Notes under the pieces: generated by a model
Told to the model about the DNA's origin: nothing
Database searches by the model: none
Seen by the model: only the letters and a program-made list of their open reading frames with translations
Translations under genes and position numbers: made by a program
Part shown: positions 36,060 through 37,460 of the stretch, piece by piece
How the letters are laid out: the number at the start of each line of letters is the position of its first letter
How positions within the stretch are numbered: the first letter of the stretch is position 1
NCBI GenBank assembly: GCA_951406725.2
Contig: OX597815.1
Span: 202,120,001-202,184,000, forward strand
DNA: 64,000 bases
Source: Octopus vulgaris
Lineage: Eukaryota
Direction: 5' to 3'

Positions 36060-36114
<55 letters not shown>

Positions 36115-36129
36115 GCAGAATGAGATAAC

Positions 36130-36540
36130 AAATCCAAGGCTGTGAGGAGTTCTTAGGACATTTATGATATAATTGAAATAGTCTTACAGATGTTTCTGTG
36201 ATATTATGGATATCTCTTCATAAGAGAGGGTGTGGAACATTATTTGAGTTCGAATAATTGTGGAAAAGGAGGAGATAAGAAATATAGAGGGAAATAGGAA
36301 AATGAAAGTAGAAATAAGATATATAATGATATTGTAGTTGCAGTTCCATTACTCGAGAAAAGCGGTGAATAGAAATGGTAAAAAAGTTTCCTGTACATGG
36401 TGTGTAAGTTCCAAAAGCAGTTCATGTTTAGTTATTTCAAAGTATGGAGCTGTGGAATCAGTGTTGTTCGTTCGAAAGGGTTTTGTGGCGTGAATGAAAA
36501 TTTGGGAATGCATTGTTAGCATTTGTGGATAGATGGGGAG
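36130..36540 (-). pseudogene. Possible very decayed Penelope-like RT fragment
   Basis: Minus-strand pieces LLLELTHHV..F, FSSNGTAT (resembling QxxGTAMG) and LMKRYP (resembling WxRYIDD) occur in the correct order across frames. Confidence 0.3.
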
Positions 36541-36890
36541 AGATAATTAGAGGAAGAAAGACACAGAAAAGAAAAAAAGGAAGAGTGAAAAACAAAGACT
36601 GAGAAAACTGAAGCAAGGGTGAAAGAATTAAGAAAGGGAGTGTTAGCTAGTGGTCAAGATAATGTGATGGGAGCATGGAAGAGGTGTGGGAAAGAATGTA
36701 AGGAGCAAAAGAGCGTGAGATATGTGAATAGGGGTGATATGACAGAGCTGTGGCGAGCTACAAAGGACAATGCTACTGACTTTTATAGCCCCAGGAAAAC
36801 ATATCTTCCAGATTGCTAATGACACACATAATGTGCCCGATTAGTATTTATGAGGTGAGGTCATCACTCCTACCTCTAGCCTTACATAAT

Positions 36891-36937
36891 ACACACGGAC
36901 TTAAGTGTCTGGGTGGTTACCCGTCCTCAGCGTGTGT
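36891..36937 (-). ncRNA. Minimal type-I hammerhead ribozyme motif (GAAA changed to GACA)
   Basis: Minus strand ACACACG-CTGAGGA-CGGGT-AACC-ACCCA-GACAC-TTAA-GTC-CGTGTGT: perfect 7-bp stem I, 4-bp stem II, palindromic loop III and GUC site. Confidence 0.75.
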
Positions 36938-37061
36938 TAATCGACAGCTAGTGATGGAAACTCATACGACTCGCAAAATACTATATTCTTTTTCCGGCGA
37001 CACACTGTCGCATATATAATTTTGCGAGTGGAATGATCTTTCATTACTAGCTGGTGTTTAA

Positions 37062-37107
37062 ATCACGCTGAGGACGGGTAAACGCCCAGAAACTGATATC
37101 AGTGTGT
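37062..37107 (+). ncRNA. Minimal type-I hammerhead ribozyme motif, degenerate near the cleavage site
   Basis: ATCACG-CTGAGGA-CGGGT-AAAC-GCCCA-GAAAC-TGAT-ATC-AGTGTGT: intact CUGANGA/GAAA core and stem II; mismatches in stems I and III. Confidence 0.6.
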
Positions 37108-37334
37108 ATCACGTAAGCTAGAGATGGGAACGATGGTCCCCCCCTGGCAATTACTAATCGGACACAGGATGTGTGTCGTTAGCCAGTTGGAAGAGATGTC
37201 TTCCTGGACCTATAAACATCAGTAACACAGTTCTTTATAGGACGCCACACTTGATTGGCAGTTATATGTTAAAATTCCGTATTACTACTGTTTATATCTC
37301 GCTCAAACATTTCATATAGTATATATATATACTA

Positions 37335-37460
37335 TTTTACTCTTTTACTTGACTGCGGCCATGCTGGAGCACCGCCTTTAATCGAGCAACTCGACCCAGG
37401 GACTTATTCTTTTATAATCCCAGTACTTATTCTATTTGTCTCTTTTGCCGAACCGCTAAG

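What the first reader, a model, noticed from the sequence alone, without database searches (positions are those of the whole stretch)
36749..37249. ~500-nt rod-folding non-coding element with hammerhead ribozyme motifs in both polarities (viroid-like/retrozyme-like architecture)
Seen: the two halves are reverse complements over ~240 nt each and are closed by an apical GCGACA/TGTCGC hairpin. A minus-strand hammerhead (36891-36937) and a plus-strand hammerhead (37062-37107) lie opposite each other in the rod. By hand count the first ~100 aligned positions carry ~21 mismatches and no gaps, including six adjacent-pair mismatches and many transversions. Known: ambisense hammerheads paired against each other in a stem occur in Avsunviroidae-type viroids (e.g. 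PLMVd) and many viroid-like circular RNAs; minimal type-I hammerheads with a palindromic loop III are typical of Penelope-like elements and retrozymes. Inference: gap-free, evenly spread mismatches fit a rod maintained as an imperfect duplex better than neutral decay. This may be a genome-integrated, self-cleaving RNA element of cephalopods, possibly circularising and mobilised by a PLE RT. This copy has lesions in both ribozymes.
Basis: partly seen in the sequence, partly recalled or inferred. Interest (0 to 1): 0.85.

Follow-up and report, generated by a model that had tools for sequence, protein, structure and literature searches.

The report
Decayed inverted retrozyme insertion, not viroid
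The 500-base rod is two old, independently mutated copies of a 357-base ribozyme-bearing repeat joined head to head, a shape that young relatives in the same genome show as near-perfect palindromes and that is likely left by Penelope-type retrotransposon enzymes rather than kept as a viroid-like RNA.

Summary
The rod (MFE z about -25) and both hammerhead relics are real, but the rod is not a maintained viroid-like RNA. It is a head-to-head inversion of two decayed copies of a dispersed ~357-nt circularly permuted monomer with one type-I hammerhead (>2,000 first-look candidates). Across 45 loci there are 27 head-to-head and 0 tail-to-tail junctions, at scattered positions. The arm differences are private to each arm (27/27/2 of 56), and their spacing and duplex energy match neutral decay.

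A hammerhead pattern uncovered young sister subfamilies (353-nt tandems, 439 exact motif copies, Rfam Hammerhead_1 E 4e-6). Their inversions have arms mostly 98-100% identical and ends in (TA)n. In 19 of 23, one end stops at monomer position ~174 and the other at ~217-221; none uses one site twice. This is the Penelope-like 'tail at one end' footprint.

Verdict: an old copy of a non-LTR retrozyme lineage, likely mobilised by a (TA)n-targeting Penelope-like element. No partner was identified; cleavage and circles are untested. The scan's index held no look-alike sequence; one note describes similar insertion marks on a ribozyme-free unit in another genome.

The parts
36749..37011 (-). Left copy of the ~357-nt monomer (monomer positions 244 through the cleavage site to 149). 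Its expected 3' end (site 1, ~167-175) and flanking (TA)n are missing; it is joined directly to the neighbouring PLE fragment.
   Evidence: 12.8% divergent from the column majority of the other copies
36891..36937 (-). Type-I hammerhead relic: 7-bp stem I intact, CUGAGGA core at 36930, 4-bp stem II. The GAAA core motif carries one substitution; loop III is changed but still palindromic.
   Evidence: not detected by Rfam
36997..37011 (.). Small hairpin of the monomer (positions ~244-258) that happens to lie at the inversion point. The two arms share a 2-nt overlap at 37010-37011.
37010..37319 (+). Right copy of the monomer (positions 268 through the cleavage site to 219). Its 3' end is at site 2 (~217-221).
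   Evidence: 12.9% divergent from the column majority
37061..37107 (+). Type-I hammerhead relic: CUGAGGA core at 37068 and GAAA intact, but stems I and III and the palindromic loop III are disrupted.
37320..37331 (.). (TA)n tract abutting the right copy's 3' end (insertion target signature)
36113..36748 (-). 3'-terminal fragment of a separate Penelope-like element family (Hydra-clade-like), with its own hammerhead relic (core at ~36223). It ends at (TA)n 36064-36111 and joins the left arm with a 2-nt CA microhomology.

Best explanation
The rod is a head-to-head pair of two decayed copies of a ~357-nt hammerhead-bearing repeat (a non-LTR retrozyme), likely made in one insertion event by a Penelope-like element's enzymes and then mutated neutrally. 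Shown: a circularly permuted monomer with one type-I hammerhead; head-to-tail tandems; head-to-head inversions at variable points; 3' ends in (TA)n at two fixed monomer positions about 45 nt apart; near-identical arms in young inversions; private, randomly spaced differences in this old one. Inferred mechanism: (1) tandem loci are transcribed and the hammerheads, pairing as dimers through the palindromic loop III, cut out unit-length RNA that is probably circularised; (2) a GIY-YIG endonuclease nicks both strands of a (TA)n tract; (3) the reverse transcriptase primes one cDNA at site 1 (~174) and a second, from the opposite strand, at site 2 (~217-221); (4) each cDNA runs a variable distance, often through the cleavage site and round more than once; (5) the two cDNAs are joined head to head, often with short microhomology. 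The product is a perfect DNA palindrome at birth. This copy has since drifted about 13% per arm, and both its ribozymes are probably dead.
For: Family size: 2,172 and 2,414 first-look candidates, 40 scored each. Tandem period 357-358 in old copies and 353 in young ones. Junctions: 27 head-to-head and 0 tail-to-tail in 45 old-family loci, at scattered positions (the first query favoured inverted loci). All 38 young loci among the first 100 listed pattern matches: 23 head-to-head, 0 tail-to-tail. 19 of the 23 are site 1 + site 2, 0 use one site twice, and 4 have one irregular end; 20 of 23 have (TA)n at both ends; 13 of 15 non-inverted loci end at site 1. Young arm identity 327/327, 411/412, 293/294 and 391/394; 97-100% in 21 of 23, with two exceptions at 92.8% and 94.9%. 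Window arms: 56 differences in 241 columns, of which 27 are private to one arm, 27 to the other and 2 differ in both; 2 further columns are shared-derived; the minor allele reaches 0.2 frequency at only 1 of 56. Rod duplex -265/-275 kcal/mol against -288 +/- 10 predicted from 44 unrelated copy pairs at that divergence. The young hammerhead matches RF00163 at E 4.1e-6, 32.2 bits, under the gathering score of 34. Young monomers differ by 0-2 nt within a locus (6 pairs) against a mean of 4.0 between loci (130 pairs). Literature: inverted 5'-truncated copies, a 30-40 bp tail at one end and (TA)n bias in PLEs (PMC8557442, passages and section 11); two RT start sites explain the tail (PMC11167929, passages); retrozyme definition (PMC7229834, passages and Discussion).
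Against: No autonomous partner sharing sequence with the monomer was found. There was no blastn hit at E<=1 in 34 GIY-YIG loci (33 distinct) and none in the 12 Hydra-like endonuclease loci; there was only a 23-nt AT-rich match to the Hydra-like 3' UTR, which may be chance. The window's left arm ends at position 149 against a PLE fragment rather than at site 1 + (TA)n, so this copy departs from the clean pattern. The old and mid subfamilies have a C.A apposition at hammerhead positions 10.1/11.1, so their cleavage is uncertain. Cleavage, circularity and transcription were not shown. In the one PLE tested in vitro, hammerhead cleavage was not needed for insertion and start sites did not differ between strands (PMC11167929). 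The window arms are rich in transversions (0.54 against 0.45 +/- 0.07 for similarly divergent pairs), a mild unexplained excess.
Confidence: 0.88

Rival explanations
1. The copies are 5'-truncated pseudo-LTRs of an autonomous Penelope-like element, not an independent non-autonomous monomer. Inversion and decay are as in the best explanation.
For: Same end signature and hammerhead type as PLEs. Retrozymes are homologous to pLTRs in Xenopus (10.64898/2026.07.22.740005, parts 1-3 of 5 read).
Against: Sequence upstream of the hammerhead is the monomer's own 3' part in tandem loci, up to 5 units. No shared longer flank appears in 20 old loci apart from short patches of other repeats, nor in 38 young loci, whose ends mostly lie in (TA)n. 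No monomer similarity in the PLE loci.
Confidence: 0.07
2. One reading: a rod-shaped RNA with ambisense hammerheads, kept as an imperfect duplex by selection (viroid-like circle).
For: Very stable rod on both strands. Nearly gap-free arms and hammerhead motifs in both polarities.
Against: Gap-free alignment is normal between unrelated copies (median 0 gap columns). Mismatch clustering is random (P 0.26) and the duplex is weaker than the unrelated-pair expectation. Differences are private, junctions are locus-specific, and young inversions are near-perfect. Both ribozymes are damaged, and the antisense monomer has no core.
Confidence: 0.02
3. The palindrome arose after insertion by a fold-back DNA rearrangement of a single copy, not during integration.
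For: The window's left end is irregular and fused to another element, so some later rearrangement probably happened here.
Against: Inversions are always head-to-head (27/27 old, 23/23 young). Both outer ends sit in (TA)n at two different fixed sites, which a fold-back of one copy would not give.
Confidence: 0.03

Closest known systems
Animal non-LTR retrozymes (Cervera & de la Pena 2020, PMC7229834; Li, Clavereau & Pollet 2026, 10.64898/2026.07.22.740005)
   Same: ~350-nt non-coding monomer, 41-44% GC, one canonical type-I hammerhead per unit with a 2-bp stem III and palindromic loop, found as monomers, dimers and short multimers, with PLEs in the same genome.
   Different: Frequent head-to-head inversions and a fixed two-site end rule in (TA)n. 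'inverted' occurs 0 times in the 2020 main text, and no such rule appears in parts 1-3 of the preprint. Expression, cleavage and circles are not shown here. No pLTR homologue was found.
EN+ Penelope-like elements (Neptune/Nematis/Hydra/Naiad; Craig et al. 2021, PMC8557442; Frangieh et al. 2024, PMC11167929)
   Same: Partial tandems, an inverted 5'-truncated copy, a tail at one end, two internal start sites, a (TA)n target, and a type-I hammerhead.
   Different: No ORF, and unit-length tandem without an intervening RT. The site spacing is ~43-47 nt against the 30-40 bp described.
Avsunviroidae and viroid-like ambisense hammerhead circles (recalled; not examined by a call)
   Same: Superficially a rod with hammerheads in both polarities at this locus.
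   Different: The ambisense arrangement is a DNA inversion accident. The monomer has one hammerhead, folds as a branched structure (circular MFE z -6.0 and -4.6 for young copies), and is a genomic repeat.

Membership tests
Non-LTR retrozyme | Short (150-450 nt) non-coding monomer in head-to-tail tandem | tested here: met
   period 357-358 (old) and 353 (young), up to 5 units
Non-LTR retrozyme | One canonical type-I hammerhead per unit, short stem III with palindromic loop | tested here: met
   RF00163 E 4.1e-6 on a young copy, below the gathering score; relics only in the window copy
Non-LTR retrozyme | GC below 45%, no LTR | tested here: met
   GC 0.41-0.44; no terminal repeats other than the permuted unit
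Non-LTR retrozyme | Self-cleavage in vitro (as monomer or dimer) | not testable with these tools
   needs bench assay
Non-LTR retrozyme | Expressed as unit-length linear and circular RNA | tested here: inconclusive
   The young monomer is in contigs of three runs only guessed to be RNA, with an end-to-start joint that a DNA-type run also shows; contigs cannot tell a circle from a tandem
Non-LTR retrozyme | Co-occurrence with autonomous EN+ PLEs | tested here: met
   intact 781-aa RT + GIY-YIG ORFs ending in (TA)n
Autonomous Penelope-like element | RT + GIY-YIG ORF between pLTRs | tested here: not met
   tandem units join directly with no ORF between them; no tblastn hit of the 781-aa PLE protein in the window
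Autonomous Penelope-like element | Inverted 5' copy, tail at one end, microsatellite target | tested here: met
Viroid-like ambisense hammerhead RNA | Hammerheads in both polarities as a constant feature of the unit | tested here: not met
   no antisense core in 4 of 4 monomers; junctions vary
Viroid-like ambisense hammerhead RNA | Rod maintained by shared or covarying arm differences | tested here: not met
Viroid-like ambisense hammerhead RNA | RNA-to-RNA replication, both polarities present as RNA | not testable with these tools
   only contig-level runs were available

The most novel reading that the evidence does not exclude
The young subfamilies are a currently or recently mobile retrozyme whose insertions record the mechanism directly. 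A Penelope-like RT primes twice on one circular ribozyme RNA, once at each of two fixed sites and from opposite strands of a cut (TA)n tract, rolls round the circle, and joins the two cDNAs head to head. That would be sequence-footprint evidence that animal retrozymes are copied by PLE enzymes from circles, and it would explain why the PLE 'tail' sits at only one end. The window's junction to a Hydra-like PLE 3' end could be a fossil template switch that names the old partner.
Probability: 0.45. Interest if true: 0.55.

Novelty: new member of a known kind. Interest (0 to 1): 0.3.

Why it matters
The locus itself is ordinary: a dead repeat insertion. It is a useful caution that retroelement 5' inversions plus neutral decay mimic viroid-like rods with ambisense ribozymes, so such rods in genomes or assembled transcripts need a copy-family check. 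The family around it is more useful. It spans at least four subfamilies of different age, with hundreds of near-identical young copies and a strict site 1 / site 2 end rule. That makes the open question of how animal retrozymes are mobilised testable with natural sequences; the 2026 preprint rests on co-occurrence and pLTR homology and says the mechanism remains to be elucidated. My searches of the held library found no paper describing such a family in a cephalopod, but repeat libraries and some supplements could not be checked.

Tried and rejected
Rfam on the window copy: no hammerhead hit; only simple-repeat miRNA noise and two chance snoRNA scores. Maintained-rod statistics: mismatch clustering, longest perfect run, gap count and duplex energy are all within or worse than neutral expectation. 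Subfamily explanation for the arm differences: rejected. Partner search: the intact 781-aa PLE family ends in (TA)n but shows no DNA similarity to the monomer, and my scans found no hammerhead inside it. The Hydra-like family next to the window copy looks dead (longest open frame among 150 listed hits 364 aa and 584 aa). Seven other hammerheads sharing loop III show no monomer similarity and no hit to either PLE protein query. I first labelled the left flank 'Neptune' from recall; the CxCX5C linker fits the Hydra clade, and no tree was built. Sequencing runs: no RNA holder on record was listed; 20 of 24 listed runs hold 0.67-0.87 of the young family's words. Laying 4 runs gave contigs only, so no start or end signal at the cleavage site could be read. 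Covariation in the monomer: 3 of 42 predicted pairs show double changes across 15 copies; each is probably a single subfamily event, so this is weak support only. Earlier-findings search by sequence: nothing. Literature searches: retrozyme/hammerhead/octopus; Penelope/inverted/pLTR/hammerhead; octopus/Penelope/hammerhead ribozyme; Penelope-like/twin priming/inversion (listing only); retrozyme/cephalopod. The supplement of PMC7229834 was unreadable, one of the PMC4209133 files was not searched, and bioRxiv supplements are closed; any of these, or Repbase/Dfam, may already list this family.

Full report
OBSERVATION. The inverted repeat is real. The arms are 77% identical over 239 nt, and the 501-nt stretch folds as a rod on either strand (z -25.2 and -21.5). 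The first 100 aligned positions hold 21 mismatches, no gaps and five adjacent-pair runs. Hammerhead-shaped motifs lie at 36891-36937 (-) and 37061-37107 (+). Both are damaged, and Rfam finds neither. No second copy lies in the window.

WHAT IT IS. A search of the window's own 2.8-Gb genome gave 2,172 first-look candidates, 40 of them scored. Many loci match both halves with a single stretch. Aligning 33 copies from 20 loci shows a circularly permuted monomer whose downstream end reconnects to its upstream end with a period of 357-358 nt. Intact copies carry a type-I hammerhead: 7-bp stem I, CUGAGGA, 4-bp stem II, GAAA, 2-bp stem III with a palindromic UCGA loop, and a GUC site. This is the 'canonical metazoan' form that works as a dimer (PMC4209133, passages). 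On the monomer, the window reads: left copy, positions 244 to 149 on the minus strand; right copy, 268 to 219 on the plus strand and then (TA)n. The two copies are head to head. The 'apical hairpin' is the monomer's own small hairpin at 244-258.

THE ROD IS NOT MAINTAINED. In 45 old-family loci (60 fetched, 15 set aside as duplicate or overlapping) there are 27 head-to-head junctions and no tail-to-tail ones, at scattered monomer positions (the first query enriched for inverted loci). The window arms are 12.9% and 12.8% from the column majority of the other 31 copies. Of 56 differences, 27 are private to one arm, 27 to the other and 2 differ in both; 2 further columns are shared-derived; only 1 minor allele reaches 20% in the family. 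Mismatch clustering (P 0.26) and the longest perfect run (P 0.73) are random. Unrelated copies are just as gap-free. The duplex (-265/-275 kcal/mol) is weaker than the -288 +/- 10 expected from 44 unrelated pairs at that divergence. The one oddity is a mild excess of transversions (0.54 against 0.45 +/- 0.07). None of 4 monomers scanned has an antisense hammerhead core.

YOUNG RELATIVES SETTLE IT. Only 5 exact copies of the old 47-nt hammerhead exist, so that subfamily is old. A looser pattern found 912 matches, with 0 for the reversed control. These include two young subfamilies and an intermediate one, homologous along the monomer (about 69% identity old against young). One young motif has 439 exact copies and matches Rfam Hammerhead_1 (E 4.1e-6, 32.2 bits, gathering score 34). 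I examined all 38 young loci among the first 100 listed matches: 23 are head-to-head inversions, none is tail-to-tail, and 15 are single or tandem. Arms are 97-100% identical in 21 of 23, for example 327/327 and 411/412. Twenty of 23 have (TA)n at both ends. In 19 of 23, one end stops at position ~174 and the other at ~217-221; no locus uses one site twice, and 4 have one irregular end. Thirteen of 15 non-inverted loci end at ~174. Old-family 3' ends cluster at the same two places. Such palindromes are therefore born perfect and decay, and the window holds an old one.

MECHANISM. Shown: the anatomy, the end rule and the decay pattern. From the literature: PLE insertions are partial tandems, often with an inverted 5'-truncated copy, a 30-40 bp tail at one end and a (TA)n bias (PMC8557442, passages and section 11); a purified PLE starts reverse transcription at two internal sites that define the tail, and cuts both strands of AT-rich DNA (PMC11167929, passages); animal retrozymes are ~300-nt hammerhead tandems expressed as circles and proposed to use PLE enzymes (PMC7229834, passages and Discussion; 2026 preprint, parts 1-3 of 5). 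Inferred: dimeric hammerhead cleavage releases unit RNA, which probably circularises; a PLE nicks both strands of (TA)n, primes one cDNA at site 1 and one at site 2, and the two join head to head. Units within a locus differ by 0-2 nt against a mean of 4.0 between loci. That fits rolling-circle copying of one molecule, but also copying of a homogeneous tandem transcript. The young monomer is predicted to be structured and branched (circular MFE z -6.0 and -4.6), with three compensatory pairs across subfamilies (weak).

PARTNER AND EXPRESSION. The genome holds many intact 781-aa RT + GIY-YIG ORFs that end in (TA)n. They are candidates only, since they share no DNA similarity with the monomer. 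The window's left flank (36113-36748, minus strand) is the 3' end of another abundant family (2,369 candidates). Its relatives carry a hammerhead and an upstream CxCX5C linker and endonuclease C-terminus, which match the Hydra clade description (no tree built). It replaces the expected site-1 end of the left arm, by template switch or by later deletion; I cannot tell which. Public runs: none on record as RNA. Three guessed-RNA contig sets from three studies hold the young monomer with an end-to-start joint, as does a DNA-type run; this is inconclusive.

COMPARISON AND VERDICT. It meets the sequence-level definition of a non-LTR retrozyme, with cleavage and circles untested. It works like a non-autonomous PLE passenger, and it fails the tests for a viroid-like ambisense rod. 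Searches of the held library found no description of this family, but key supplements and repeat databases were not available. New member of a known kind; interest 0.3, mostly for the young subfamilies and their end rule rather than for this locus.

Noticed in passing
G000 genome-wide; e.g. L128:2004-3106, L137:1274-3076, L138:1531-2235: Young sister retrozyme subfamilies (353-nt unit, 439 exact copies of one hammerhead motif, tandems up to 5 units, near-perfect head-to-head inversions in (TA)n with a strict site 1 / site 2 end rule). They are better test material than the window copy.
   Followed up: yes
window 36113-36748 (-): 3' end of a Hydra-clade-like Penelope-like element with a third hammerhead relic, fused to the left arm by 2-nt microhomology. 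Its family looks old and broken.
   Followed up: partly
L126:1245-3590, L127, L139, L140: Abundant intact 781-aa RT + GIY-YIG PLE family with a CX4CxxC linker, a 3' region of repeated CCAAT/TGACGT-like motifs and (TA)n at its 3' end. My scans found no hammerhead within it.
   Followed up: partly
L173-L179: Seven further short hammerhead-bearing sequences share the same palindromic loop III but not the monomer; several are followed closely by microsatellite. They may be other PLE or retrozyme ends.
   Followed up: partly
L101 and L106; L115, L188, L194: Different loci share identical inversion or 5' break points (149/119; 146), suggesting secondary copying of particular insertions or segmental duplication.
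   Followed up: no
window ~37330-37460: A separate abundant repeat right of the element, matched in many loci; it resembles a cephalopod SINE by recall only.
   Followed up: no
old and mid subfamily hammerheads (e.g. L061, L181): Positions 10.1/11.1 are C.A in the old and mid subfamilies, U.U in one young subfamily and canonical G-C in the other; this may tune cleavage.
   Followed up: no
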